Shown one piece after another: positions 32,610 to 47,357 of a stretch of 64,000 nt of DNA. Where the stretch lies: NCBI GenBank assembly GCA_032161105.1, contig JAVHTD010000003.1. One strand, given 5' to 3'. The position numbers were made by a program, and so were the translations under genes. The notes beneath the pieces are model-generated. The model worked only from the letters and a program-made list of their open reading frames with translations. It was not told where the DNA came from and searched no databases. Position 1 is the first letter of the stretch. Each line of letters opens with the position of its first letter. This DNA is from Candidatus Thermosaccharophagus tengchongensis (lineage in GTDB: Bacteria; Armatimonadota; Fervidibacteria; Fervidibacterales; Thermosaccharophagaceae).

Positions 32610-33593
32610 CTACCTATGTATCTCACTTGCTGCCGGCAAACCGTAAAATCCCTTAGCGTGCATCACCGCGTTAAGTATCGCCTGCGCGACTGCCTCAACT
32701 GCTGCAACGCACAATGAATTCAGGTTCGCCGGGATATCCCCCACGGAGAAGGCGAATGTGACATCGCCGTCAAACATCGTATGCGCCGGTCTAACAGCGA
32801 GTGCAATGCCATCTTGGGAAGCTTGAGCGAGCTTTGTCGCCTGCCATTTCTCAAGGCGCGCATTGGTGATCACGGCTGCAAGCGTCGTGCTCTGTAATGC
32901 GCTTCCGGGAAATCCAACCCCTCCCCTAACCTTCACCACTTCAGTTGACATGATGAAGTTCCTTCTGAGGCTATCATAAGCTCCAGCCACAATCTCACCA
33001 GTGCGCCAGTTTACGACATCACCCCACGAGTTGGCGACAGCAAGCGCAAGCACACAGATATCGTTTGGCAGTTCAACACAGGCAAGTCCAAGTCCACCCT
33101 TCATTGCGTGCCCCATGCCGAGCGCCTTCCCAACAGATGCGCCAGTGCCGACACCAACATTGCCCTGCATTAACCCATTGCACAATGGAACCGCGCCCTC
33201 GCAAGCCCTGTATCCCCACTCGGAATTCGGACGCACACGAGATGAGCCGACGGTAAGGTCAAAGATGACTGCACCGCACACAATCGGCACCTTCGTGACA
33301 CCGACATCAAACCCTATTCCATTCTCCTCAAGCCAGCGCATTACCCCAAACACTGCCTCAAGCCCAAACGCACTCCCACCAGTGAACACGAGTGCATGCA
33401 CATACGGCACAACATGCAACATGCCAGCTGTATCTATGCCGAGCACTCCGGAAGCACTCCCGCGCACATCAACACCGCAAGTTGCCCCCTTGGGGAACAG
33501 AAGCACGGTCAAACCTGTGCCCCCATCAATGTCGCTAACATGCCCTATGTGCACATCCGTGAGTCTATCTCCCACTCTTTTAAGCACTGCCAT
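32610..33593 (-). CDS. P1-family (DmpA-like) peptidase
   Basis: GVDVRG, GGSAFGL, AVIFDL, GNVGVGTG and PAHTMFDGD. Confidence 0.9.
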   Translation of the reverse strand: MAVLKRVGDRLTDVHIGHVSDIDGGTGLTVLLFPKGATCGVDVRGSASGVLGIDTAGMLHVVPYVHALVFTGGSAFGLEAVFGVMRWLEENGIGFDVGVTKVPIVCGAVIFDLTVGSSRVRPNSEWGYRACEGAVPLCNGLMQGNVGVGTGASVGKALGMGHAMKGGLGLACVELPNDICVLALAVANSWGDVVNWRTGEIVAGAYDSLRRNFIMSTEVVKVRGGVGFPGSALQSTTLAAVITNARLEKWQATKLAQASQDGIALAVRPAHTMFDGDVTFAFSVGDIPANLNSLCVAAVEAVAQAILNAVMHAKGFYGLPAASEIHR

Positions 33594-33644
33594 TCACCAC
33601 CTGAGGTGAAAAGCGCCTGTCTCGCTGCGCAAATGGCGTTGCAA

Positions 33645-35309
33645 TCACCGCTCACAACTTCTCCAAAAAGCCAATGCCTCACGATATTCCTCGCTGCGCA
33701 TGACCTCGTTCATCGCCTCATCAATCTGGCGCTGGCTCCTGTCGTAATGCCCGTAATACACCTCGCGGTAGAGCCTCTCGTAAAACCTCGCAATTGGTTG
33801 GCGAGGCTCAAATCTCTCCACAACCTTTATCGTTGACGCCGCCTCATGAAGCGACATTGCCCCGGCGCCGGCTGCGGCAAGCAACGCCATCCCGTAGGAG
33901 GCATCCCTTGCCGTAGTCGTGCACACAGCCTGCCCGAATATGTCAGCGGCAAGCTGCACCCAGAACCTGCTCCTTGAGCCACCCCCAACCATCCTTATCT
34001 CCTTAAGCTCATGCTCCTTTGGGAGCAGCCCCTTGATTATCTCAATTGCGTCACGCACGGCAAAACATACCCCTTCAAGAATCGCCCTTATGAAACATGC
34101 ATCACCGTTGCTCTCCGGCTCAAGCAAGTATGCCGATACGCCATACCAGCACCCCTTACCCTCAGGAGCTTTGACGAGCCTGTCACCCGTCAGGTATGGC
34201 GAAAACATGACGCCGTTTGATCCCGGCGGGACTTGCGCTGCTCTCCTCGTGAGTAACTCATATGGGTCAACTCCGAGTTTGTGCGCAGCCGTGCGGTATG
34301 TGTCGGCAAGCACATCACGATACATCCTCAACCCAATTCCGGCACCGTTTACACAACCCATGTTCACAAGCACATTCGGGACGGTTGAGTAATGCACCTG
34401 AGTGCGCAACTGTGGGTCAACGAGCGGCTTTGTCCCAATTGGCGCAACCGCAACGCCGCTTGTCCCGAGCGTGAAGAGCATCTGACCAACTTCAAGCACA
34501 CCACCTGCAAGCGCACCAGCAAGGCAATCCCCAGCACCAGCAATCACGAGTGTGCCCTCGTCCAAACCTGTCTCATCACTCGCTTGCCTCGTCACTTTTC
34601 CGATGACCGAACCCGGCTCAAGCAGCTGCGGCGGGGTGAGCTTGTCAATTCCGAGAACATTGAAAGCCTCAAGTGCCCAACGCTTTGAAGGTATGTCCAT
34701 GAGCGATGTCTCCGAACCACCGCAATAGTCCATGGCAACCTCGCCGCATAGAGATAGGGCGATGTAATCCCTCGGCGTGAGGAACCTTTTCGCGCGCTCC
34801 CAAACAGGACCCCAACGCTGCGCCTCATATTCTGAGCTACCGGCCTTCCAATCCTCCCAACGCCTCTTGACATAGAGCAAATGCGCTCCAGTCCAGTTTG
34901 CGAGGAAATCGTTGCAGATGACATCAATCAGGAAGCGTTCCCCAAGCTTATCCTTCAGCAACTGAGCGCCTTCAACAGCTTCCCTTGCAGCCCTCCCATC
35001 GTTCCACAAGAGCGCAACGCCAACAGCCTCATTTGCCTCGTCAAGCAAAATCATCGTGTGCATCTGACCAGTGAAGCACACAGCCTTGACTTTGTATTCG
35101 GGCTGCATTGATTTGAGCTCGCCAACTATCTTGCGTATCGTCTCAAAGGCAGCCTGCCGCATTTCATGCGGCGATTGCTCAGTCCATCCCGGCTGCGGTA
35201 TGTAGAGCGGATATTCCGTGCTCGCTTCCGCGAGCAACTTGCCAGAGGCATCAATAGCAGTCCCTTTCACGCTCTGCGTCCCAACATCCACCCCTAAGAA
35301 CGCATCCAC
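33645..35309 (-). CDS. FGGY-family carbohydrate kinase (xylulokinase-like)
   Basis: GVDVGTQSVK, TGQMH, WNDGR, GAGD, LGTSG, RAILEG and GGGSRS. Confidence 0.9.
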   Translation of the reverse strand: MDAFLGVDVGTQSVKGTAIDASGKLLAEASTEYPLYIPQPGWTEQSPHEMRQAAFETIRKIVGELKSMQPEYKVKAVCFTGQMHTMILLDEANEAVGVALLWNDGRAAREAVEGAQLLKDKLGERFLIDVICNDFLANWTGAHLLYVKRRWEDWKAGSSEYEAQRWGPVWERAKRFLTPRDYIALSLCGEVAMDYCGGSETSLMDIPSKRWALEAFNVLGIDKLTPPQLLEPGSVIGKVTRQASDETGLDEGTLVIAGAGDCLAGALAGGVLEVGQMLFTLGTSGVAVAPIGTKPLVDPQLRTQVHYSTVPNVLVNMGCVNGAGIGLRMYRDVLADTYRTAAHKLGVDPYELLTRRAAQVPPGSNGVMFSPYLTGDRLVKAPEGKGCWYGVSAYLLEPESNGDACFIRAILEGVCFAVRDAIEIIKGLLPKEHELKEIRMVGGGSRSRFWVQLAADIFGQAVCTTTARDASYGMALLAAAGAGAMSLHEAASTIKVVERFEPRQPIARFYERLYREVYYGHYDRSQRQIDEAMNEVMRSEEYREALAFWRSCER

Positions 35310-35346: not shown

Positions 35347-37278
35347 CTAACTGCCCTGCCCCTGTGCCATTTGCCTCAGCAGCCTCTCAACGAGCTTGCG
35401 CTTCTCCTGCCTTATGCCCTCACTCCCCCTTTCATAATCGTAGACCCAATAGCCCTCTCGTGTTGGGTGTCTCTCAAAGCATGCATGCAAGCTCAAGTTG
35501 GATGCGATAAGGCGTTTGCTCACCCTGCGGAGCAAATTAATCTCAGCCCAAAGGCGAATGAAGTGTATGCCGTCATCATAGAACGGCATTATGAGCGACT
35601 GCATCAGCTCAAGTATGCTCGCCTTCATGACCACCTCCTGATGGGAGTAGCTGAGCAATTGGCGCAGCCTACCAGCAGGCATGTGAAGATGGCTATCATA
35701 CTTCCCATCCCACGAGAGCATCATCTTGCCATGTTGGTTCTTCACCTCAACCTTAACAACAGCGCCGGCACTGATCCCCCTGCGCTCATACCACTCCTTG
35801 AAGCCGAACATCAAACCGCTTTCAAGATTGACCCACACAGGAAATTCATCCCCGCTCTCATCAATGGCAGTGTAATGCTGCAGCATTTCGCTGCCACGAA
35901 ACAGCCCCATGTCAATTTGACGGAGCTTCATCGTCCCAGCAATGATGTGATGATATGGCACCGGTATGATTGTTGAGCGCTTACTCTTGGGCACGCTCTG
36001 CACGCTCACCGGCTCGCCAACATCCTCATACTTTGGCGCATTGACCCATTTGAGCAAATCCGGTTCAAGCGCTTCATCCGGAAGCTCAATCTCAACGGCT
36101 TGTGGCTCCTGCGCAAGCAAGCCCTTCGGTGGCACCGGAATCAAACTTTCCGGGATGACTTTCACCCACTCCGGTATCTTCTCTTTCAGCCACCACTTGT
36201 GGTTGCCCAACCTGATAAAACGGGCATCACTGCTCAACCTCCTGTGCACTTCATATAGCGTCGGATAATAAGCTTCATGTGTTGGGTCAATCTCAAGCGC
36301 CTCAGAGAGCAAAATATCAATTCTGGCTGGTTCACTCCTTTCCCTCAGCCACGCTACTAACTCATCCCAATCTTCCGATGTGATTGGTAACGGACGCACC
36401 TTTGAGCGCTTAACAATTGCCTGAGCACGATTCATTGCCTTGTTCAGGTCGGACAGCACTTCACGCGTGAATTCGCTTGCCCTCTTTGACTCCTCAAGGA
36501 CCATTTGGCGCAGCCGCTCAATCAGACCGTCAGTGAACCAATACCCCGGAGAGATGACACGCAGCTTGGCTGAGCTGAAAAGCTCCCTCAAGATGCTCTC
36601 GCCATCCAGTTTATGGTTACGACCGCGCCAGCAGATAAGCACCATCTCGTGGTGCGACAACGGTTGCCCCAACCCGTCAATCATCCTTTGGCACACTTCG
36701 TCCAATGGCAAATTCCAATCAAGTGACAATTCATCAACTCGCCAGAGCAGCTGTTTGATCCTTTCCTCCTCGCCGAAGAAGTTATCAGCGATAACATCAT
36801 CCTCACCACCGCCACTCAAATCTGGCAGCCAATAGCGCAACCCAAATTTGCCCTCACCAACCTCCCAAAATGAGTGCGTGCGCGTCGTCAAAAGCCCTCT
36901 AACAATCTCGCTCACCTGTTCAACGCTTCCCTTGCCGGCTTGTGAGAGCCATATGCTCAACTCGTCAAGCGACACAGGATAGCCCAAACATTTCAAAGCC
37001 TCGCTTATCATCCCCTCAAGTGAGCTATGTGGTGCATCAAACCGCCACCGCAATTCCCAGCGATGCTTTGCGAAGATGAAGAACTCGCTCAAGCGCAACT
37101 GCTGTCTTAAGTATTCGGTTGATATGTCAACCTCACTTGAGATGGCGTTCCTAACCTCGGCTGAGTGTAATGGCTTGCCGGCTTTGAGCAGGGCAAGCTG
37201 CGCCATATGCGCAACATAGTAGGGCACATAGGAGTTTAATGCCTCTGTCGGGCTAACTTCCATAACGCCCTCACTCAC
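35347..37278 (-). CDS. Uncharacterised protein with about five winged-helix (HARE-HTH/RNAP-delta-like) modules and a B3-like beta domain
   Basis: 643-aa ORF with RBS GGAGGTG. Repeated GxPL...F-x(4-6)-[W/F]-x-L segments, e.g. DARFIRLGNHKWWLKE. The domain calls are inferred by eye. Confidence 0.7.
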   Translation of the reverse strand: MSEGVMEVSPTEALNSYVPYYVAHMAQLALLKAGKPLHSAEVRNAISSEVDISTEYLRQQLRLSEFFIFAKHRWELRWRFDAPHSSLEGMISEALKCLGYPVSLDELSIWLSQAGKGSVEQVSEIVRGLLTTRTHSFWEVGEGKFGLRYWLPDLSGGGEDDVIADNFFGEEERIKQLLWRVDELSLDWNLPLDEVCQRMIDGLGQPLSHHEMVLICWRGRNHKLDGESILRELFSSAKLRVISPGYWFTDGLIERLRQMVLEESKRASEFTREVLSDLNKAMNRAQAIVKRSKVRPLPITSEDWDELVAWLRERSEPARIDILLSEALEIDPTHEAYYPTLYEVHRRLSSDARFIRLGNHKWWLKEKIPEWVKVIPESLIPVPPKGLLAQEPQAVEIELPDEALEPDLLKWVNAPKYEDVGEPVSVQSVPKSKRSTIIPVPYHHIIAGTMKLRQIDMGLFRGSEMLQHYTAIDESGDEFPVWVNLESGLMFGFKEWYERRGISAGAVVKVEVKNQHGKMMLSWDGKYDSHLHMPAGRLRQLLSYSHQEVVMKASILELMQSLIMPFYDDGIHFIRLWAEINLLRRVSKRLIASNLSLHACFERHPTREGYWVYDYERGSEGIRQEKRKLVERLLRQMAQGQGS

Positions 37279-37315
37279 AGCGCTGCACCTCCAAACTTAA
37301 CATTGCTCTTCACCG

Positions 37316-38740
37316 CTAAGGCAGCTTCGCAAACAGGTCGTATTCACTTGCGCCGTCAACTAAAGCTCTGACGAAGCTGCCCGGATTCAACCCGCTGCCC
37401 TTCACATAAACGAGACCGTCAATTTCAGGTGCATCACGATAGCTTCGCCCCACCCACATCCCCTTCCGTTTATCCCGCGATTCAATCAACACCTCAATCT
37501 CGCCCCCGATGAATTGTGCGTTTCGCTCAAGCGATATTTGCCTTTGCAGTTCCATCAGCCGCTCGTATCGCTCAAGCTTGACTTCATACGGAACTTGCCC
37601 ATCAAGCTTGGCTGCATCAGTTTCTGGCTCCGGCGAGAATATGAAAGCGCCAACCCTGTCAAGCTTCGCCTCCTTGAGGAACTCAAGGAGCATCTCAAAA
37701 TGCGCCTCACTCTCACCCGGAAAGCCAACCATGAAAGTGCTCCTTATTGCGATATCCGGCATAGCAGCCCTCAGCCGCTCCACCAGCTTCAAGTAACTTT
37801 CAAAGTCCCCCATGCGCCTCATCGCACGCAGTATCTCGGGATGGACATGTTGAAAGGGGATGTCAATGTAGTGAACGACCTTCTCAATGGTTGCCATGGC
37901 TTCAATGAGCTCATCGGTAACGGTTGTCGGGAAGCCGTAAAGTATGCGCACCCAATGTATGCCATCAATTACAGCGAGACGGCGCAGCAGCTTTGGCAAC
38001 ATGAGCTCACCATATAGGTCAAATCCGTATCTTGTCGTTTCCTGCGCGACCAGAATCAGCTCCTTCACGCCTATGGAAGCGAGCCATCTTGCCTCCGCAT
38101 CAACTTCCTCCAGAGGACGACTGTGTTGGCTGCCGCGTATCATTGGGATAACACAAAAGCTGCACGAACGGTCGCAGCCCTCGGCAAGCTTCAAGTATGC
38201 ATACCAATTTGGCGTGCTGAGCAATCTCTCCCTGAATGGCTTGCTATAAGCTTCGGCATCGCTGCGCAATTTTGCATCCACAATCGGCGCTTCAGACAGC
38301 GAGCGAATCAGCTTGGGTATCTCAAAGAGCTTGTCCACAGGTAAGCACGCATCAACTTGAGGGACCGAGCGCTTGATGACTTCCAAATTGCGTGAGCAAA
38401 GGCAACCTGCAGCTATCAACAAACGCGCCTTGCCAACTTTTTTGTATCGCGCAAGCCTTTGAAGCACATCCACCGATTCATCAACTGCTGCTTTGATGAA
38501 GCCACATGTGTTTACGATAATGACATCGGCATCCTTAGCCCTTGTCGTGAGTTCGCATCCATGCCGAAGGAGCTCGGCAACGAGGCATTCAGAATCAACC
38601 GTGTTCTTTGGGCAACCGAGGGACACCACCATGCACTTTGACGGGCGCCCAGATGGAGCAGCTGCCATAGCATGCGACACACGCTGCAGAGCAACGCGCC
38701 TTTGTCCTTTCTCAACCATGCAAACCTTCTCTCCCCTCAC
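37316..38740 (-). CDS. rimO: Ribosomal protein S12 methylthiotransferase RimO
   Basis: SLGCPKNTVDSE, NTCGFI, EGCDRSCSFC, and C-terminal GRSYRDAPEIDG TRAM domain. Confidence 0.95.
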   Translation of the reverse strand: MRGEKVCMVEKGQRRVALQRVSHAMAAAPSGRPSKCMVVSLGCPKNTVDSECLVAELLRHGCELTTRAKDADVIIVNTCGFIKAAVDESVDVLQRLARYKKVGKARLLIAAGCLCSRNLEVIKRSVPQVDACLPVDKLFEIPKLIRSLSEAPIVDAKLRSDAEAYSKPFRERLLSTPNWYAYLKLAEGCDRSCSFCVIPMIRGSQHSRPLEEVDAEARWLASIGVKELILVAQETTRYGFDLYGELMLPKLLRRLAVIDGIHWVRILYGFPTTVTDELIEAMATIEKVVHYIDIPFQHVHPEILRAMRRMGDFESYLKLVERLRAAMPDIAIRSTFMVGFPGESEAHFEMLLEFLKEAKLDRVGAFIFSPEPETDAAKLDGQVPYEVKLERYERLMELQRQISLERNAQFIGGEIEVLIESRDKRKGMWVGRSYRDAPEIDGLVYVKGSGLNPGSFVRALVDGASEYDLFAKLP

Positions 38741-39035: not shown

Positions 39036-42000
39036 TCAATCCCCTTTGCGGTTCCTGTTGACCTCCACTTCAATCTTGAACTCGCCCAAGTTGACCGCCT
39101 GCTGGTCAACAACACTTGCTGCACTCTCGTTGCTCTGCTCGCCAGTTGGCTTGCCTTTGCCCTCTTCTCCACCTCCCACGCGATCACGATTTTCCTCACG
39201 CATGAACTTCCTGAGCATCTGCGGGTATGTTAGGGAACGCTTTTCCCTCTCTGTAATGTCCTGCAACTCCTCACCGGTCCGAATGATGCGCGGCGTTATG
39301 AAGACCATAAGTTCGGTGCGCTCCTTAACATCTTTCGTGCGGCTGAACAAGGAACCTATTATCGGCAAATCTTTCAGCACCGGCACGCCTTGGACAAACT
39401 TGCGCAAGTCGTGCTTCAGTATCCCACCGATGACCACAGTTTGACCATCTCGGACTTGCACCGAGGCAACTGCCTCACGCTTCGTTATGACCGGCAACTC
39501 CTGCCCCTGCAGGATAACCTTCTCGGCTATGTCGTTTATTGTCTGCCGTATGTCCATGAGCACATAACCGCTGTTGTTAATGTGCGGCGTGACCTCAAGC
39601 GTCAATGTGATGTCCTCAAATCCAATGGTGTATTGCGGACCTGTAGCTGTGATGATGACATTCCTCGGAACTGGGTATGACTTGCCTATCGTTATAGTCG
39701 CCGGCGTGTTATCAAGCGTGAGTATATGCGGCGTTGCGAGCACTCTAACTTTGTTCTCCAAAGCGAGCGTCTGGAGGAGGGCTTGGAAGTTCTTGCTGAC
39801 GACCTCCCAAGACAAGCCGGCGCCAATCTGCTGGACGCCGAATTCCGTCCCAAGCTTTGAATCCATCGTCTCACCAAACAGCCTCTTCTGCAGGACTGCC
39901 CATTCAACGCCGAGTTCAAGCTCCTTTGTGAGCGTCACATCAACAATCATGACCTCAATGAAGACTTGCGGAAGAACCGTATCAAGCTGCTCTATGAGCT
40001 GTTCAACGACATCAAATGCGTAAGGAGGCGCAGTTACGATGAGCGAATTGGTCTTTGCATCAGCAGTGACGGATATGTCTTGGAGGTTGCGCAAAGGACC
40101 TTGAAACTGCCTCTGCATAGCGGCGAATACGAAGAAGAAAAAGCCGGTCGGACGGCGCTGCTGGGCGAGTATTGAGTTTATCGTGCTTGCAAGCTCGGTT
40201 GCGTTCACATTTTGTATCTTGTAGATGCGCACCAGATTTGTCAGCGCAGCCGGTTGATCAAGCTCCCTTATCAAGCGCTCAAATTCGCGCATGTTATCCT
40301 CAGTCGCCGTCACGATGACGGAATTTGTGCGCACATCCGCCTCCACAACATTTCGCCGCAAGCCAACCAAACGCGCTGCACCTGTAGGTTGCTGCCTCCC
40401 AGCCCACCACCAGAAGAAGCCGCCAAAACCCCTTTGCCCTCCGGGTGTTTGCTCAAACAGTTGGTTAAGTATATCGGCTACTTGAGCTGCATCCGCATAC
40501 TGAAGCCTGAACACCCTCGCCATAACTGGTGGCGCGAAGTCCTTATCAAGCTCGCTCACAAGCTGCTTTATGCGCTCAATGTTTTCCTTAGTTGCAGCAA
40601 TGATGAGCGCGTTGGCACGCTCATCAGCAGCTATTGCTATTTGCCTCTCAAGTTCGCCCCTTGAGCGAGTCGCCATGCGCGTCCTGAACCTCTCAAATTG
40701 ACTGCGGAAATCCTGCGGCATCCTTCCAACCGCAAACCCCTCCTGAAGGAGGGTGCGCAATGTATCTGCGAGTGTGACGGCATCCGCATACTTGAGCGGT
40801 ATCACTTCAATCTCAATTGGCGGCATGATGTCCACATCAAGCTTTTCAACTATGGCTTTGATAAATTGCATCTTCTCAGCGGTGGCTGCGACAATGAGCG
40901 AGTTCGTTCTCGGGTCAGCCGAAATGAGCGCGTATGCGCTCAGCACACCCCTTGTTGTCTCCGCCGTCCTCGGCAACCGCACCGAAGGTGCAGGGCCACC
41001 TTCCATTCTCGCTCCGGGCATGGCTTCAAATATCTCGGACAGTATCCTATCAATCTCAACTGCGTCAGCGTGATTTAGAGGAATAACCTCAAATGTGAGC
41101 AACTCGGCTGTCTCAACATCAAGCTGCTCAACAAGCTCCCTGACCATCTTTAAGCGCTCTTTGCTTGCCCACACGATTAGCGAGTTTGTTCTTGGCTCTG
41201 GGACAATCTGCACCTGTAGCTCCACAGCTCTCGGCTGAGGCTGCGGCTGTGCTGGTGGTCTTGCACCTTCGGGCTGCTGCGGTTGAGCCTGCGGTGTTCC
41301 GGGACGAGGCGGCGTTGGCTCAACTATGCCAAACAGCCTCGTCAAAATTTGGGCGAGCTGTTCTGCATCGGCGTGCCTCAGTTTGATAATCGCAAGTTCC
41401 ATCGCCTCGGCAACGCTGACATCCACCATCCGAACGATGTTCATAAGCCTCTCCACATTGCGCTGCGTATCGGTGATGATGAGCAAGTTGCCAGCTGTTG
41501 TGCTTGTTATGAGTGCATTCTGCGCCGAGATAAGCGGCGCCAGCTCCTGCTGCAATTGCTTTGCATTTGCATAGCGCAACGGTATGACTTGCGTTACGAG
41601 TTGATCGGGAGACACAACTGGGCGCTCACCCTTTTGCGGCGGGCTCATTTCCTGCTGCGGTTTTGTTTCGGTGCGCAGTTCCGTAGCTTGCGTCCTTGCC
41701 TCACTCAGCGGGACTATCCTGATGATGAAATCGCGAGGCGTTCCGAGCATGGCAAACCCGCGCACATGCAGCACTGCAGATAGCACCTCAAATGCTTGCT
41801 CAACTGTCAACGGTGACGGAGCAATGATCGTCACTGTGCCTTCAAGCTGCGGATGAAGGACGAACACCTTCCCGGTCACCTTGCTAAAGAACTGAATGAC
41901 ATGCTCAATGTCCGTGCGCACAAATGAGAATTCAAGCTTCAACTCCCTGTCATAAACGACCCTACCTGTCTCTGAAAATCCAAATTGCCTTCCAAATTGA

Positions 42001-42272
42001 TGCGTTGGAGCCTCACGGGACTCGCCCTGCCCACTCTGTTGAGCGCTTTCAATTTGCTTTTGCGGCTCTGGTGGGGCTTCCTTCTGCTCCGCTTTTGAAT
42101 CGCCCACATTAACTTCACCTTGCACACCACCAGCTTGCGCTGCCTGCTCTTGCTGGTCTTGAGCGATTGCAGGCAAATGAACCTGAGGAGCTGAAAACAC
42201 AAACAGCACCGCAAGGCATACAATGCGTATAGTCCTGCGGCGCCTGAGCAATGTAAGTAGGCAGCCTTTCAT
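39036..42272 (-). CDS. gspD: Type II secretion-like secretin with N0 plus six Secretin_N repeats
   Basis: Signal peptide, six [IL]xLx[YH]AxA...D.RTNSLIV repeats, and secretin core PQVFIEV...VPVLKDLPIIGSLF...TELMVFITP. Confidence 0.93.
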   Translation of the reverse strand: MKGCLLTLLRRRRTIRIVCLAVLFVFSAPQVHLPAIAQDQQEQAAQAGGVQGEVNVGDSKAEQKEAPPEPQKQIESAQQSGQGESREAPTHQFGRQFGFSETGRVVYDRELKLEFSFVRTDIEHVIQFFSKVTGKVFVLHPQLEGTVTIIAPSPLTVEQAFEVLSAVLHVRGFAMLGTPRDFIIRIVPLSEARTQATELRTETKPQQEMSPPQKGERPVVSPDQLVTQVIPLRYANAKQLQQELAPLISAQNALITSTTAGNLLIITDTQRNVERLMNIVRMVDVSVAEAMELAIIKLRHADAEQLAQILTRLFGIVEPTPPRPGTPQAQPQQPEGARPPAQPQPQPRAVELQVQIVPEPRTNSLIVWASKERLKMVRELVEQLDVETAELLTFEVIPLNHADAVEIDRILSEIFEAMPGARMEGGPAPSVRLPRTAETTRGVLSAYALISADPRTNSLIVAATAEKMQFIKAIVEKLDVDIMPPIEIEVIPLKYADAVTLADTLRTLLQEGFAVGRMPQDFRSQFERFRTRMATRSRGELERQIAIAADERANALIIAATKENIERIKQLVSELDKDFAPPVMARVFRLQYADAAQVADILNQLFEQTPGGQRGFGGFFWWWAGRQQPTGAARLVGLRRNVVEADVRTNSVIVTATEDNMREFERLIRELDQPAALTNLVRIYKIQNVNATELASTINSILAQQRRPTGFFFFVFAAMQRQFQGPLRNLQDISVTADAKTNSLIVTAPPYAFDVVEQLIEQLDTVLPQVFIEVMIVDVTLTKELELGVEWAVLQKRLFGETMDSKLGTEFGVQQIGAGLSWEVVSKNFQALLQTLALENKVRVLATPHILTLDNTPATITIGKSYPVPRNVIITATGPQYTIGFEDITLTLEVTPHINNSGYVLMDIRQTINDIAEKVILQGQELPVITKREAVASVQVRDGQTVVIGGILKHDLRKFVQGVPVLKDLPIIGSLFSRTKDVKERTELMVFITPRIIRTGEELQDITEREKRSLTYPQMLRKFMREENRDRVGGGEEGKGKPTGEQSNESAASVVDQQAVNLGEFKIEVEVNRNRKGD

Positions 42273-42372
42273 CTCGCCTCACCCTCATGAGCAGCTTAAA
42301 TTTTACGCTCACGGTTTCCCGATGCATCATCGGTTCGCATTCACAGTTGCTATTGCCATTGCGAATCGCCCT

Positions 42373-43314
42373 TCAATTGCCCTCCTCAGAAAACCTCCTT
42401 CTGAAGCGGCGTATGCGCTCCATAACATCTGGCGGTATGTTGTCCCCGTAGCGCTCACGCATGCGTTGCATCATTTGCTCAAAGAATCTTGAACGCCCCT
42501 CAAAGGTTGGTGGTGAGGGTGGTGATTGTGATGTAACCTGTTGCCCTGTTTGACCTGTTTGCTCTGTTTGACCCGTTTGCACAGTTTGTTGTGATTGCAC
42601 CGCCGATTGTTGTTGAGATCCAGATGGGCTTGCTGATGGCGCCCTTTGCTGGGAGACGCTGCGAGCCATCAACTCGCGCTTCTCTTTGTTCTCCCCGAGC
42701 GCGTAGTAAAAAGAATGACCGTCTCTCTCAAGCTCAATTGCATCCGGTGCTATGCGGAGCACGCGCATTCCAAAAACACAATCGCCCTCCTGGACATACA
42801 TGCCTTCCTTTGTGCCCAAGTTCTCAATCAGAGCGACCGGTTTCCCATTTACCAGAACGAATGCCGTGTATGCCATGTCCTTTGGCTTCTCCGGGGCGCG
42901 ATGTTCCCTTGTCATATGGGTGCTCTCTGGCGGCTGAGTTTGCACGCTCATTGGTGGCGGCAATGGCTGTAGTGACGGCGGTGCTGCCGTATTGACTGCT
43001 GCCATACGAGGCGTGCGTGCGCCCTCTTCGTGGGCTAAAACAACGGGCTTAAACACATTGCGCTCCCATATAGCGACATACCTTTGCACCGCCATTGAAC
43101 GAGCCCTCAGAATACCATCAATGTCAACATTCACATCCTGCGCATCAGCTTGAGCGGCGGGCTCAGTCGCCCCCGCAGTTGTAACTTCTCTCACTGCTTG
43201 GCTTGGTGCTCTCGGCGCAGTTGTATGCCTCACATACGCATAGCAACATGCAACCAGGAATGGAATGAAGATTCCGAGTATGATGGCATCTCGCCTGGTT
43301 AACTCAAGCCTCAT
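42373..43314 (-). CDS. Putative GspC/PilP-like connector protein
   Basis: One TM, RNVF motif, HR-like beta segment (ALIEN...YVQEGD), Q/T-rich tail; located between gspM-like and gspD. Confidence 0.6.
   Translation of the reverse strand: MRLELTRRDAIILGIFIPFLVACCYAYVRHTTAPRAPSQAVREVTTAGATEPAAQADAQDVNVDIDGILRARSMAVQRYVAIWERNVFKPVVLAHEEGARTPRMAAVNTAAPPSLQPLPPPMSVQTQPPESTHMTREHRAPEKPKDMAYTAFVLVNGKPVALIENLGTKEGMYVQEGDCVFGMRVLRIAPDAIELERDGHSFYYALGENKEKRELMARSVSQQRAPSASPSGSQQQSAVQSQQTVQTGQTEQTGQTGQQVTSQSPPSPPTFEGRSRFFEQMMQRMRERYGDNIPPDVMERIRRFRRRFSEEGN
42541..42588 (-). repeat. 9-bp-period coding tandem repeat (QTG/QTE/QTV)
   Basis: The minus strand reads caaactgtg caaacgggt caaacagag caaacaggt caaacaggg caa. 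Confidence 0.8.
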
Positions 43315-43319
43315 CTTGG

Positions 43320-43943
43320 TCACCGCGGCATCCTTGTGCCGCTGCGCTGCGAAGCTGCCCACTTGCCACTCTCAATGAGCACATACCTTGAAACGCGCAT
43401 TTGGATGCGCAGCCTCTCACCACCATCCTGTGATGTGCTAATAGCCATCCTGTCAACGATTGTTGGTGGCGTCATTCTGCGCAAGCCCACAAGGAAGTGA
43501 GTCAGCGCCTTCATCGTTCCATCCATTGTCACTTCAATTGGCATTGTGACCCATCTCCCATTGGGCTCGGCAACGGACTCACACGGTTGGAATGAACTCA
43601 CGCGAAGTCCACATTGAGCTGCTAACTCACTCACCTCTGAGACAAGCTGCGATACCAACTTGCCACGCTCAAATTCTTTAACCGGTGAGCCAATAAGCCC
43701 CTTCATCTTTTCATAATCGGTTTGAAGCTGCCTCACCAGTCGGATCTGCCGGTCAAGTTCGTTTAGCTGCTGCTTTTGCTCTTTAAGCGCCCTATACATT
43801 TGACGGATGGCGCTCTTAATCGGCGTCACCCAGAATGCCAAGATGAGGATGGCAAACAGCGTAAGTAGCCCATTGATGATCAAGATACGATGTGCCGTCA
43901 CCTTCATCAATTTTTGCTCTTCGTCCAAAATCTGCGTCACCAT
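43320..43943 (-). CDS. GspM/PilO-like assembly-platform protein
   Basis: TM, coiled coil and ferredoxin-like PilO segment (PIEVTMDGTMKALTHFL). Confidence 0.78.
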   Translation of the reverse strand: MVTQILDEEQKLMKVTAHRILIINGLLTLFAILILAFWVTPIKSAIRQMYRALKEQKQQLNELDRQIRLVRQLQTDYEKMKGLIGSPVKEFERGKLVSQLVSEVSELAAQCGLRVSSFQPCESVAEPNGRWVTMPIEVTMDGTMKALTHFLVGLRRMTPPTIVDRMAISTSQDGGERLRIQMRVSRYVLIESGKWAASQRSGTRMPR

Positions 43944-43946
43944 TGC

Positions 43947-45578
43947 TCACCTCATCGGGACTTGCACGGGTATCGCCTTACGGCGCGCTAATGAGCACAC
44001 CAACCTAAAATCAACGACAGTTCTTCCGGCTACTTCTCGGCTCACTACACTTGTGACAACCACATCCGAGAACATCGTGCTCTTATCACCATCGCCAAAC
44101 TTCAGCTGCCTAATTGAGCGCACCGCCTCATCAAGTGCACGATAGCTTAAAGCCGTCCCTCGCATCGTCACCTCTCGCCCGCGTGCGCACTCAAGTTCGC
44201 TTAACCAAACATCCTTCGGCAATGCCATGCTAAGCCCATAAAGCATCTCAAGCCAATCGCCACTAACATCGGATACCTCGGTGAGCAAATGGCGCATAGC
44301 TGAGACCGTTGCCATAAGGCTTCCGGTCGCAACCTCGGAACGCAGTTGCGAGCGCCTTTCCTCAAGTGCCTTCGCCAGCGCTTCGGCTTCCACTTGAAGC
44401 TGCTTGAGCTGCGAGTTGTATGAAAGCGCCAACACCACCAACCCAACATTTAAAGCGAGAAGCAAGAGCGCAACTTGTTTCAACACCTTTGGAATGATTA
44501 CCAACTTGAAGGGGCGTCTCGGGGCAAAGTTGAGTGTGCTTCTGCGCAGCGCCAATGAGCGCGCTGCACCATATGCAGCAGCCGTCAGCATAAATTCATC
44601 CTTGCCTATCAACCCTGAGTGGCTTCCAGCCAACCTCGGCATCTCAAGCAACTGCACGCTTATCCCGAGGCGCCTCCCAAGCCAATCAACGAGGTTTGGT
44701 ATAAGCGCGCCACCACCGCACAGCAAAACCTTCCGTATAGAGCTGCCGAATGCGCGTTCAACCATTTGCGCCGTTTTCAAAATCTCCTCCTCAAGCTTGA
44801 GGAGCCACTTAAGAACGGATGAACAGCCAACGGCATTATCGGCGCCTTGCGTCTCGCCCTCCCTCAAGAGCTCCAAGTCAATTCCATTCCTGCGCATCTT
44901 CCACTCCGCTTCCTCCGACGAGCAACTTGCATCCTCACTGATGGCTTTCAGGAGCTGCCCGGTGCCCACAGGAACACTCCTCGCCACAAAAACATCCCTT
45001 GCATGCCCAACAACTACATCCGTGCTCGCAGCGCCTATGTCAATCACACAGGTCAATCGCTCGTTAAGCGCTTCATCATTCGCTGCCTGCCAACAAGCGA
45101 GTGCTGATGGGGTGATCACATTCAACTCCAATCCGGCAGCATGGGCTGCCCTCAAGAGGAATTCAACCGCTTCATGTTTACACATCCCGACCAGCACATG
45201 CGTGCCATCGCGCCCGAAGGATTGCACGACATGACTAAACGCAACGCGGTTAAACGAGAACGGCATTTGATTTTGCATCTCCACCTGCGCCAGCTGCTCA
45301 ATCATCTCCCGCCTTTTTACCGGCGGAAGCGTTATCCTGCGCAAAGTGCATGCCGTCATCGGGACACAAGCGCATATTGCGGCATCATTCACACGATGCG
45401 CTGAGAGGACTTCGGACAACTTCCTTCCGACTTCCTCACAGCGCTCCTCACCCTCCAGTTGCAGAGCAACCCTGTTCAAACCGGCAATCTCAACCGAAGA
45501 ACCACGCCGGCGCAATATGACAACCTTGAGTTCGCTCTCACCGACATCAAATCCGACAAAGAAGCGCTTCCCGAACAT
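43947..45578 (-). CDS. GspL-like protein: PilM (actin-fold) domain fused to a TM and PilN domain
   Basis: VGFDVG, IDIGAASTD and LCGGGALIPNL, then a TM, coiled coil and LPKDVWLSEL...MRGTA. Confidence 0.82.
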   Translation of the reverse strand: MFGKRFFVGFDVGESELKVVILRRRGSSVEIAGLNRVALQLEGEERCEEVGRKLSEVLSAHRVNDAAICACVPMTACTLRRITLPPVKRREMIEQLAQVEMQNQMPFSFNRVAFSHVVQSFGRDGTHVLVGMCKHEAVEFLLRAAHAAGLELNVITPSALACWQAANDEALNERLTCVIDIGAASTDVVVGHARDVFVARSVPVGTGQLLKAISEDASCSSEEAEWKMRRNGIDLELLREGETQGADNAVGCSSVLKWLLKLEEEILKTAQMVERAFGSSIRKVLLCGGGALIPNLVDWLGRRLGISVQLLEMPRLAGSHSGLIGKDEFMLTAAAYGAARSLALRRSTLNFAPRRPFKLVIIPKVLKQVALLLLALNVGLVVLALSYNSQLKQLQVEAEALAKALEERRSQLRSEVATGSLMATVSAMRHLLTEVSDVSGDWLEMLYGLSMALPKDVWLSELECARGREVTMRGTALSYRALDEAVRSIRQLKFGDGDKSTMFSDVVVTSVVSREVAGRTVVDFRLVCSLARRKAIPVQVPMR

Positions 45579-45584
45579 CTCATC

Positions 45585-47357
45585 TCACCTTTCCCGCCAG
45601 TAGCGCACCACAAATGTCACATTGCCCTGCGATGCACCTTCCGACCGCTGCAACGCGCCCGCCGAAAAAGCCTCCCCACCTCGTTCCCCTTCGCCCGTCA
45701 TCGGTTGGGACAATACGCGTTCAACAATGCACTCTATCACATAGCGTGCACCGCTCCTCATCCAACCCACCGAGACGATCCTAAAAACCTGAGTGCGCAC
45801 GCTCACCTTATCAACGAGCTGTCTGAACGAACGCTCATCAACCGATGGCAGATCAAGCAGTTGTGAGAGTGACTCAAATGCCCCATAGCGCTGTCTATAT
45901 GCAACAATGTCACTCGCTATTTCCTGAGTCATTCCCGGGATGCTCATCAGGACTTGCAAAGGCGCAGTATTGATATTGATGGCATTATACCTCGCCCTGC
46001 CCTCCCAAATGGTCACTCGGTCAATTATCTGGCGCGCTTTATCTGCAGGCAGACCCGGCACCGAGAACAAATCGGCAAGGGAGCGGAACTCGTTTGAGGT
46101 CCTCTCACCCGATTGCAGCGATGCACTTTGCTGTGGCGGTTGCATTGCACCCTGCTGCGATGCACCTTGCTGCGGCGCGCTTTGACCCATACCCTGTTGG
46201 AGCTCCCCAGCACCCGGTTGGAGACCAAAGGGCTGTAAGGCTGCAGCTCGCCCGGGTGTGAGTTGAGGTGGTTGAGGTGGTTGACTACCACCTTGTGGCG
46301 GCATGTTCCCTGCGCCACTTCCAAACGGCGCACCCATGGGCGGCGTCAACATCGGCGGACGCTCCCCCGGCTGCACAGGAGATGGTGTGGATGGAGGAGA
46401 TGGCGTGGATGGTTGAGCTGCCGGCTGTTCCGCACCAGTGGGGCGTTGTTGGGTTGAAGGGCGCGGCGCACCTTGTTGGGGAGCACCCGTCCGGTATCGC
46501 ACAATCGCCTCAATCTCTTCGTCCGTGAGCACATCCCCAAGAACTCTCTTCATCTCCTCAGCAGATGCTTGATTCAAGTTTAAAAGCGGTGAGCCATCCG
46601 GCATCACATTCGGCACAGCCGAATATACTGTCAAGCAATCACGCAGCGGCAATGCGCCTTGTCCTTCGGCATCAACACCGCTCAGAGTGGATGAGGTGAA
46701 AGCGTAAAACCCATCCACTGTCATGCCGCGCACAAGGAGCAGCTCATGCAATGTCTCAAACGGGGCATTGCGCGGCTTGTATGGCAGTCCAGAGGAGAGA
46801 TACCAATCTGCCTCAGCGCCATAAGTTTGAGGTGTGTCATCCTCATCTCGCCAATCAATGATTGCGTCGGCGAGCGCCTCATCTCCGAAGAAGTTAACCA
46901 ACTCATCTCTTGTTGCGGTGTTCACATTCAGCTTCCCGCTCTCGTCCTCAACACGCACAACATACCTCCCAACATCGCTTAATATGCCGTCTTGCTCCGA
47001 GTCAATGAAAGCCCACTGGTCATTGTAGCTGTCAAAGTTCATCTCATCAGTTGAGAGCAGATGCAGCGCATGCGCGATGCCAGCCTTCGCAAGGTAGTAA
47101 GCTTTGACCTCGCCTTCATACAATGCGCTGCTGCGCACTTCCATGCGCACAGATAAAAGCATGGAAGCGGCAAGCAACGATAGCACAGCCGCCAGCCATA
47201 GCACAAATATGAGCGCAATTGCTTCATCACGGTGCCCTAAAATCGCATTTACACATGTTATGCGCCAATGACTGCATTGACGCTCTACGCCGCTTTGCTT
47301 TGATTGAGCAATGCATCCCTTCCTCAAAGAGAGCTTAAGGTTTGGAACCGCCCTCAT
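45585..47357 (-). CDS. gspK: Minor pseudopilin GspK with a Pro/Gln-rich insertion
   Basis: ALIFVLW TM, AYYLAKAGI, DESGKLNVN, AIIDWRD, NAPFETLHEL and ININTAP. Confidence 0.9.
   Translation of the reverse strand: MRAVPNLKLSLRKGCIAQSKQSGVERQCSHWRITCVNAILGHRDEAIALIFVLWLAAVLSLLAASMLLSVRMEVRSSALYEGEVKAYYLAKAGIAHALHLLSTDEMNFDSYNDQWAFIDSEQDGILSDVGRYVVRVEDESGKLNVNTATRDELVNFFGDEALADAIIDWRDEDDTPQTYGAEADWYLSSGLPYKPRNAPFETLHELLLVRGMTVDGFYAFTSSTLSGVDAEGQGALPLRDCLTVYSAVPNVMPDGSPLLNLNQASAEEMKRVLGDVLTDEEIEAIVRYRTGAPQQGAPRPSTQQRPTGAEQPAAQPSTPSPPSTPSPVQPGERPPMLTPPMGAPFGSGAGNMPPQGGSQPPQPPQLTPGRAAALQPFGLQPGAGELQQGMGQSAPQQGASQQGAMQPPQQSASLQSGERTSNEFRSLADLFSVPGLPADKARQIIDRVTIWEGRARYNAININTAPLQVLMSIPGMTQEIASDIVAYRQRYGAFESLSQLLDLPSVDERSFRQLVDKVSVRTQVFRIVSVGWMRSGARYVIECIVERVLSQPMTGEGERGGEAFSAGALQRSEGASQGNVTFVVRYWRER

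What the first reader, a model, noticed from the sequence alone, without database searches (positions are those of the whole stretch)
35347..37278. Unknown protein with about five tandem HARE-HTH/RNAP-delta-like winged helices plus a B3/EcoRII-N-like domain
Seen: repeated modules AGKPLHSAEV...FIFAKHRWELRW, LGYPVSLDEL...FWEVGEGKFGLRYW, LGQPLSHHEM...LRVISPGYWF, RSEPARID...DARFIRLGNHKWWLKE and DGIHF...CFERHPTREGYWVY. Between modules 4 and 5 is a beta segment FPVWVN...LMFGFKEWYERRGISAGAVVKV (~35700-35990). Established: the RNAP delta N-domain ends in DGRF-x5-WGL, and B3 pseudobarrels carry GW-x-[FY]-x4-L-x-AGD-x-V. HARE-HTH and EcoRII-N domains recognise DNA. Inference: a multivalent nucleic-acid-binding protein with no obvious catalytic domain, such as a nucleoid, RNAP-associated or modified-DNA reader. 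It appears co-transcribed with rimO.
Basis: partly seen in the sequence, partly recalled or inferred. Interest (0 to 1): 0.7.

Follow-up and report, generated by a model that had tools for sequence, protein, structure and literature searches.

The report
Conserved winged-helix plus B3 bacterial protein
An unnamed protein that nearly all members of one poorly studied bacterial phylum carry joins five winged-helix modules, related to an RNA polymerase subunit, to a DNA-reading barrel known from plant transcription factors and restriction enzymes, and it probably has a housekeeping role on the chromosome.

Summary
The anatomy is confirmed. The 643-aa ORF folds confidently (pLDDT 93.6) into five winged helices plus a B3 barrel (Z about 11 to plant B3, 7-9 to restriction-enzyme B3). 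RNAP delta is the recurring sequence relative of the helices.

It is a core gene: 280 of 301 genomes of the phylum (Armatimonadota by named relatives) match, mostly once and at full length. Its tree agrees with RpoC, and it often lies between rimO and gltX. Homologues sharing the WH4-acidic linker-B3-WH5 core occur in 114 of 121 Anaerolineae and in other Chloroflexota. Sporadic paralogues are fused to DNA methyltransferases or type IIG enzymes in defence-like islands. No canonical delta was found in 151 genomes of either phylum.

All 53 aligned members are net acidic, which argues against simple nucleoid compaction. Conserved basic residues cluster in WH5 and the tail.

Best reading: a non-catalytic chromosomal DNA-recognition scaffold (0.45). 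Main rival: an expanded delta-like RNAP subunit (0.27). Function is inferred, not shown, and co-transcription with rimO is untested. My literature searches found no description of the family.

The parts
35347..37278 (-). Gene for the 643-aa five-winged-helix plus B3 protein
   Evidence: full-length relatives in 280 of 301 phylum genomes
37287..37292 (-). Shine-Dalgarno-like GGAGGT, 8 nt before the GTG start
   Evidence: sequence
37039..37230 (-). WH1 (aa 17-80), winged helix, slightly basic
   Evidence: VIA matches over aa 13-90, Z up to 9.5; hhalign to WH2/WH4 P 90-94%
36823..37029 (-). WH2 (aa 84-152), the closest module to the RNAP delta N-domain
   Evidence: family profile vs B. subtilis delta E 4.4e-5; Z 9.8 to S. 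aureus delta
36529..36711 (-). WH3 (aa 190-250), divergent winged helix
   Evidence: hhalign P 59-72% to WH2/WH4; profile vs delta E 0.012
36175..36387 (-). WH4 (aa 298-368), delta-like, acidic; present in every full and short form inspected
   Evidence: TIGR04567 E 2.6e-4 at aa 309-368
35983..36174 (-). Acidic linker (aa 369-432), mostly ordered in the model
   Evidence: median net charge -13 over 53 rows; pLDDT blocks 74-97
35698..35982 (-). B3 / DNA-binding pseudobarrel (aa 433-527)
   Evidence: Z 11.2-11.5 to plant B3 domains, 7.3-9.3 to restriction-enzyme B3 domains
35359..35625 (-). WH5 (aa 552-618) and basic tail (aa 619-640); most conserved part, with near-invariant E579, N581, R584, R585, S593, W611
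37316..38740 (-). rimO, conserved upstream neighbour (context only)
   Evidence: TIGR01125 485.6 bits, over cut-off

Best explanation
A non-catalytic, vertically inherited chromosomal DNA-recognition scaffold. Shown: the fold, the core single-copy distribution, the charge layout, and the reuse of the same module as the N-terminal part of DNA-modifying enzymes. Inferred: the C-terminal B3 barrel with basic WH5 and the tail grips particular DNA sites or structures, while the neutral-to-acidic WH2-WH4 array and acidic linker shield non-specific binding and/or dock a protein partner. The protein would then act as a housekeeping regulator or organiser that brings a partner machine to chosen chromosomal sites. 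The same targeting module was recruited into, or domesticated from, restriction-modification-like islands; the direction is not established.
For: The B3 matches include DNA-bound plant and restriction-enzyme domains (passages of PMC12065111). Conservation peaks in WH5 and B3: 14 and 10 columns at 80% or more, against 2-6 in WH1-WH4, and WH5 and the tail are net basic. Paralogues carry the module in frame with an N6_N4 methylase (12 of 13 hits), an N6 methylase (P0135, P0140, L176), Eco57I/type IIG enzymes (L175, L178, L179) or a sacsin/TmtA-like ATPase (L139). At 4 of 9 such loci inspected the module lies beside a DEDDh-DinG-RecQ fusion, and at a fifth beside a cut RecQ-type gene. HARE-HTH fusions to R-M enzymes are reported (PMC4738411 passages). 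Core status: 280 of 301 genomes, 262 with one match; all 7 strong splits of its tree occur in the RpoC tree, and all 8 the other way, over 16 genomes.
Against: The whole protein is net acidic in 53 of 53 members, and the B3 domain is about neutral (median -2), so DNA binding by B3 is not assured. Six of 121 Anaerolineae genomes match only the N-terminal half up to WH4, with no B3/WH5 match, so the proposed DNA-gripping half is dispensable there. Family f20 has no match (0 of 8, 0 of 5 and 0 of 17). A shared fold does not show function, and no target site was identified.
Confidence: 0.45

Rival explanations
1. An expanded delta-like accessory subunit of RNA polymerase. WH2 and/or WH4 docks on the beta-prime shelf and jaw as the delta N-domain does. 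The acidic linker and the B3-WH5 half then act on nucleic acid at the main channel, affecting promoter choice or recycling.
For: Delta recurs among the PDB sequence matches of four modules: WH2 E 4e-5, WH3 0.012, WH4 0.09, WH5 0.21. TIGR04567 hits 31 of 53 members at E 0.1 or better (best 1.7e-11) and 19 of 45 at E 0.01 or better, with the best stretch on each of the five modules in some member. No canonical delta over cut-off in 151 Armatimonadota or 151 Chloroflexota genomes, while the B. subtilis and L. lactis controls score over it; 9 of the 12 weak Armatimonadota hits lie inside this gene. WH4 followed by an acidic stretch echoes the delta layout of a folded N-domain plus acidic tail (PMC7749165 passages; bioRxiv 10.1101/2021.06.06.447298 section 5). 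The short Anaerolineae forms keep WH4 and lose B3. Single-copy vertical inheritance suits a core machine.
Against: Delta is described as Firmicutes-specific (PMC11156646 passage), so its absence here is the norm. HARE-HTH domains occur in many proteins unrelated to RNAP. None of 45 proteins reached the 42-bit cut-off (best 40.4). The FYTD stretch of delta helix 3 (seen) is not kept in WH4 or WH5. The linker is mostly ordered and has a median charge of -13, against a disordered -47 tail in delta. The WH3-WH5 matches to delta are weak and mixed with unrelated hits. Methyltransferase fusions fit DNA targeting better.
Confidence: 0.27
2. A reader of methylated or otherwise modified DNA (SeqA-like logic) that couples a host methylation mark to replication, repair or self/non-self discrimination.
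For: Repeated fusion to adenine/cytosine methyltransferases and type IIG enzymes. HARE-HTH has been proposed as a reader of modified bases (passages of PMC4738411, PMC11037411, PMC10853773).
Against: No methyltransferase family was among the recurring neighbour clusters in 70 Armatimonadota loci. PMC12065111 lists B3 among domains that likely recognise unmodified DNA. A phylum-wide cognate methylase was not tested.
Confidence: 0.1
3. An RNA- or ribosome-associated factor with tandem winged helices, as in SelB or LOTUS proteins, linked to translation.
For: rimO lies directly upstream in 17 of 40 and gltX directly downstream in 20 of 40 distant loci. There are weak fold matches to the SelB C-terminus and Egalitarian (Z 7.2-8.2).
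Against: Those matches are generic winged-helix hits below the delta and B3 rows. The Chloroflexota neighbours differ. The fusion partners identified are mostly DNA-modifying enzymes.
Confidence: 0.1
4. An abundant nucleoid-compacting protein in which all five helices bind DNA non-specifically.
For: Many DNA-binding-type folds in one chain; fold matches to histone H1 globular and Z-alpha domains.
Against: Net acidic in 53 of 53 members. WH2-WH4 have median charges of -1, -2 and -6. Large and apparently rigid (pTM 0.84).
Confidence: 0.05

Closest known systems
RNAP delta subunit RpoE (TIGR04567; HARE-HTH, PF05066)
   Same: Winged-helix modules homologous by profile and fold; WH4 is followed by an acidic stretch; single-copy core gene.
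   Different: Five modules instead of one; 600-670 aa instead of about 173; an added B3 barrel; a shorter, mostly ordered acidic linker; the delta helix-3 signature is not kept.
B3 / EcoRII-N pseudobarrel proteins (plant VAL1, FUS3, ARF; restriction enzymes EcoRII, BfiI, NgoAVII, LlaJI.R1, UbaLAI)
   Same: Same fold over 93-98 residues, rmsd 2.2-3.1.
   Different: 6-16% identity and no Pfam hit. No nuclease domain. Here the barrel sits in a vertically inherited housekeeping gene, not an R-M locus, and the domain is about neutral in charge.
HARE-HTH fusions in restriction-modification systems (Aravind and Iyer 2012, seen only as cited in PMC4738411 and PMC11037411; the paper itself was not held)
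   Same: Paralogues fuse the module to N6/N4 methylases and type IIG enzymes.
   Different: The window's protein has no enzyme domain, no PADLOC match and no defence neighbours.
Tandem winged-helix proteins SelB C-terminus, Dcc1, UFL1
   Same: Several winged helices in series (Foldseek E 0.02-0.05).
   Different: Poor global superposition (rmsd 14-30 A); no B3 domain; treated as a generic resemblance.

Membership tests
RNAP delta (RpoE) | HARE-HTH/delta-type N-terminal winged helix | tested here: met
   E 4.4e-5 by profile; Z 9.8, rmsd 3.3, 81 aligned
RNAP delta (RpoE) | TIGR04567 score over the 42-bit cut-off | tested here: not met
   21.1 bits for this protein; best 40.4 of 45 proteins; 0 of 151 genomes. 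One member (E 1.7e-11, bits not shown) may pass by summing repeats.
RNAP delta (RpoE) | Small two-part protein with a long disordered polyacidic C-terminal tail | tested here: not met
   643 aa; internal linker with median charge -13, mostly ordered; C-terminus basic
RNAP delta (RpoE) | Stoichiometric co-purification with RNAP at the beta-prime shelf and jaw | not testable with these tools
   needs biochemistry
B3/EcoRII-N pseudobarrel | Seven-stranded pseudobarrel fold | tested here: met
   Z 11.2-11.5 to FUS3, VAL1, ARF1, TEM1; Z 11.6 for the Anaerolineae homologue
B3/EcoRII-N pseudobarrel | Pfam B3 or EcoRII-N sequence match | tested here: not met
   no such family among the matches of 53 members at E 0.1
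B3/EcoRII-N pseudobarrel | Sequence-specific DNA binding through the N- and C-arms | not testable with these tools
   H444, T449, W482 and N484 are conserved; placing them on the binding arms is recalled, not tested
Restriction-modification or anti-phage system | Nuclease or methylase domain, or such genes as neighbours | tested here: not met
   no Pfam or PADLOC enzyme hit; neighbours are ftsK, rimO, gltX
Restriction-modification or anti-phage system | Patchy, mobile distribution | tested here: not met
   280 of 301 genomes; congruent with RpoC; no plasmid or phage match with one relative, P0011
Nucleoid-associated proteins | Small, basic, abundant | tested here: not met
   large and net acidic in 53 of 53 members; abundance not tested

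The most novel reading that the evidence does not exclude
Armatimonadota and much of Chloroflexota have an unrecognised lineage-specific RNA polymerase subunit or general transcription factor. It would be a multi-module delta relative that anchors on RNAP and carries its own B3 DNA-reading barrel, structurally closer to plant B3 transcription factors than to restriction enzymes, and defence islands have repeatedly borrowed it to target methylases and helicases.
Probability: 0.25. Interest if true: 0.85.

Novelty: new variant of a known kind. Interest (0 to 1): 0.6.

Why it matters
The bacterial B3 domains that turned up in these searches belong to restriction enzymes and defence sensors, and delta-type subunits are described for Firmicutes. 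A near-universal, vertically inherited, unannotated gene that combines both in two little-studied phyla points to an undescribed piece of their core chromosome or transcription machinery. It is directly testable, since cultured members exist. It is also a candidate phylum marker gene, and it links a housekeeping protein to the targeting modules of undescribed defence-like islands.

Tried and rejected
Complex prediction of aa 84-632 with the own genome's beta-prime shelf-jaw region: no answer (score 0.00 in two runs, controls not folded). It is not evidence either way.

RNA: no RNA holder listed. Four runs were laid; two had no reads, one had 30 reads over 19 kb with none on the gene, and one had 4 partial contigs. 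This is no test of expression or co-transcription.

The promoter/terminator scan found no more sites than shuffles.

The SH3/Tudor-like insert of the Anaerolineae form as a CarD or PcrA RNAP-binding domain (a recalled resemblance): no Pfam or PDB sequence support and not among the listed fold rows. Inconclusive and dropped.

WH1 alone found no significant PDB sequence match. Foldseek against PDB and viral models gave nothing at E 0.001 or better. Plasmid and phage tblastn with P0011 found nothing. The viral-contig scan did not run. The genome-contig scan with P0135 found only itself; the metagenome scan with P0151 found nothing; the word search with P0113 found only itself. Phyla other than these two were therefore not surveyed, and the hosts of P0113, P0123, P0140, P0151 and P0154 are unknown.

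Weak A2 hits were not all homologues: of 20 loci fetched, 8 were winged helix-DEDDh-GIY-YIG proteins and 1 a small HARE-HTH protein. I use the A3 counts instead.

(WH5 profile on short-form genomes) had no positive control and is not used. The careful tree did not finish; the quick tree is used. Two look-ups of earlier findings were empty.

Literature searches (listings only) showed no paper on this family. Subscription papers, including Aravind and Iyer 2012, were not visible, and no supplements were read.

Full report
OBSERVATION. The ORF at 35347-37278 (-) encodes 643 aa, with a Shine-Dalgarno-like site 8 nt before its GTG. It has no significant Pfam match. In NCBIfam its only hit below E 0.1 is the RNAP delta model TIGR04567 at aa 309-368 (E 2.6e-4, 21.1 bits, cut-off 42). 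A model from 53 diverse relatives is confident (pLDDT 93.6, pTM 0.84). It shows winged helices at about aa 17-80, 84-152, 190-250, 298-368 and 552-618, an acidic linker at 369-432 and a beta barrel at 433-527. The modules are homologous to each other, WH1/2/4 strongly, WH3 moderately and WH5 weakly. The barrel matches plant B3 domains at Z 11.2-11.5 and restriction-enzyme B3 domains at Z 7.3-9.3; WH2 matches RNAP delta at Z 9.8.

RELATION TO DELTA. The family profile finds B. subtilis delta as its top PDB sequence match (E 4.4e-5, on WH2). Single-module profiles find it more weakly for WH3, WH4 and WH5, among unrelated hits, and not for WH1. PF05066 HARE-HTH hits 11 of 53 members and TIGR04567 31 of 53 at E 0.1 or better. 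In 45 further proteins, 19 hit TIGR04567, none over cut-off, and the best stretch falls on each of the five modules in some member. No delta over cut-off was found in 151 genomes of this phylum or 151 Chloroflexota genomes, while the controls scored over it; 9 of the 12 weak hits in this phylum lie within this gene. Differences from delta: its helix-3 signature is not kept, and the acidic stretch is internal, shorter and mostly ordered, where delta has a disordered -47 tail (PMC7749165 passages).

DISTRIBUTION. Named relatives are Armatimonadota. Of 301 genomes of the phylum, 280 match (224 of 238 high-quality ones); 262 have one match and 18 have two. Three of the 18 were rechecked and hold one gene. 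Family f20 has no match in any search, so the gene is not universal. Over 16 genomes its tree shares all 7 of its strong splits with RpoC and contains all 8 strong RpoC splits; it evolves about 2.6 times faster. In 40 distant loci rimO is directly upstream in 17 and gltX directly downstream in 20; ftsK lies upstream in 12 of 70 loci, most of them with short flanks at the close-relative end. This is a housekeeping context.

SECOND PHYLUM. Using a named Anaerolineae genome as centre, a related family appears in 64 of 251 Chloroflexota genomes and 114 of 121 Anaerolineae genomes, mostly once. Its profile aligns to the Armatimonadota profile over WH4-linker-B3-WH5 (P 99.8%, E 2e-29, 304 columns). 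An Anaerolineae model (pLDDT 91.6) gives the same B3 (Z 11.6) and delta-like (Z 7.8) matches. N-termini differ, and B3 is followed by a beta-hairpin insert. Neighbours are not shared with Armatimonadota. Six Anaerolineae genomes match only the half ending at WH4. The other 187 Chloroflexota genomes had no match with this query; their classes are not given.

DEFENCE-LIKE PARALOGUES. Sporadic copies carry the module fused to N6_N4 or N6 methylases, Eco57I/type IIG enzymes or a sacsin-like ATPase. Four of 9 inspected loci lie beside a 1,800-1,890-aa DEDDh-DinG-RecQ fusion. In a quick, unrooted tree of the shared core (74 rows, SH-aLRT only), Armatimonadota (91), Anaerolineae (99) and other Chloroflexota (100) each form one group. 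The 18 sporadic copies fall outside them in at least 2-3 lineages, and nine of them group with the Armatimonadota genes (96). Whether the core gene was domesticated from such islands or donated to them is not settled.

CHARGE AND CONSERVATION. All 53 Armatimonadota members are net acidic (median -30; this one -13), as are 26 of 27 Anaerolineae members. Median charges are WH1 +2, WH2 -1, WH3 -2, WH4 -6, linker -13, B3 -2, WH5 +4 and tail +4. Conservation is highest in WH5 and B3. No enzyme domain was detected.

MECHANISM. Shown: the fold, homology to delta/HARE-HTH and B3, core vertical inheritance, the charge layout, and reuse in DNA-modifying fusions. Inferred: B3 with WH5 and the tail recognises DNA, and the acidic array shields it or docks a partner (0.45). 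The partner could be RNAP, which would make this an expanded delta (0.27); the short forms that keep WH4 and lose B3 favour that reading. A modified-DNA reader (0.10), an RNA or ribosome factor (0.10) and a nucleoid compactor (0.05) are less likely. None of these functions is demonstrated.

NOVELTY. The parts are known folds, but the architecture and its core status in two phyla carry no Pfam, NCBIfam or PADLOC name, and source names are 'hypothetical protein'. Seven literature searches showed no paper on it (listings only). The original HARE-HTH paper was not available and might mention such proteins. Papers seen as passages: PMC7749165, PMC11156646, PMC11037411, PMC10853773, PMC12065111, PMC4738411; passages plus section 5 of bioRxiv 10.1101/2021.06.06.447298. 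Verdict: a real, unnamed core family; new variant of a known kind; interest 0.6.

Noticed in passing
L073:347-5986, L174:1352-6784, L176:1498-7155, L179:455-6007: A recurring 1,800-1,890-aa fusion of a DEDDh exonuclease, a DinG-type and a RecQ-type helicase sits beside paralogues of this family and methylase or type IIG genes in Anaerolineae. It looks like an undescribed defence system (one literature search, showed nothing relevant).
   Followed up: partly
L117:6584-7015, L116:4441-4863, L181:5427-5846, L137:4794-5285: A conserved 140-165-aa gene with no convincing Pfam or PDB match lies directly downstream of the Anaerolineae homologue, including the short forms. It was not found in 3 Armatimonadota genomes or 1 other Chloroflexota genome. 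Candidate partner.
   Followed up: partly
L181:4617-5414, L182:4637-5389, L183:4629-5381, L184:4679-5431: Short 251-266-aa Anaerolineae forms that end after WH4 and lack B3 and WH5.
   Followed up: partly
L100:5214-7025 and L101-L105, L107, L110: A Chloroflexota family fusing a weak HARE-HTH-like winged helix to DEDDh and GIY-YIG nuclease domains.
   Followed up: no
L170 (G100:C295:386-586), L188:4648-7500, L189: Other weak delta-like hits in Armatimonadota: a 115-aa stand-alone ORF, and a 535-aa ORF beside a HerA-like ATPase gene.
   Followed up: no
L139:4561-11406: A 2,282-aa sacsin/TmtA-like ATPase carrying an internal B3-WH5 piece and a TPR, next to a RecQ-type gene.
   Followed up: partly
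L071:1462-5961: The own genome's RNAP beta-prime has an insert of about 60 aa between the trigger-loop motif and the jaw, also seen in the 22 relatives aligned.
   Followed up: no
window 39036-47357 (-): A type II secretion / pilus-like cluster with a 1,078-aa secretin (six Secretin_N stretches) lies upstream of rimO.
   Followed up: no
window 32610-35309 (-): Downstream FGGY-family sugar kinase (below the xylulokinase cut-off) and peptidase S58 gene; the kinase neighbour recurs only within the genus.
   Followed up: partly
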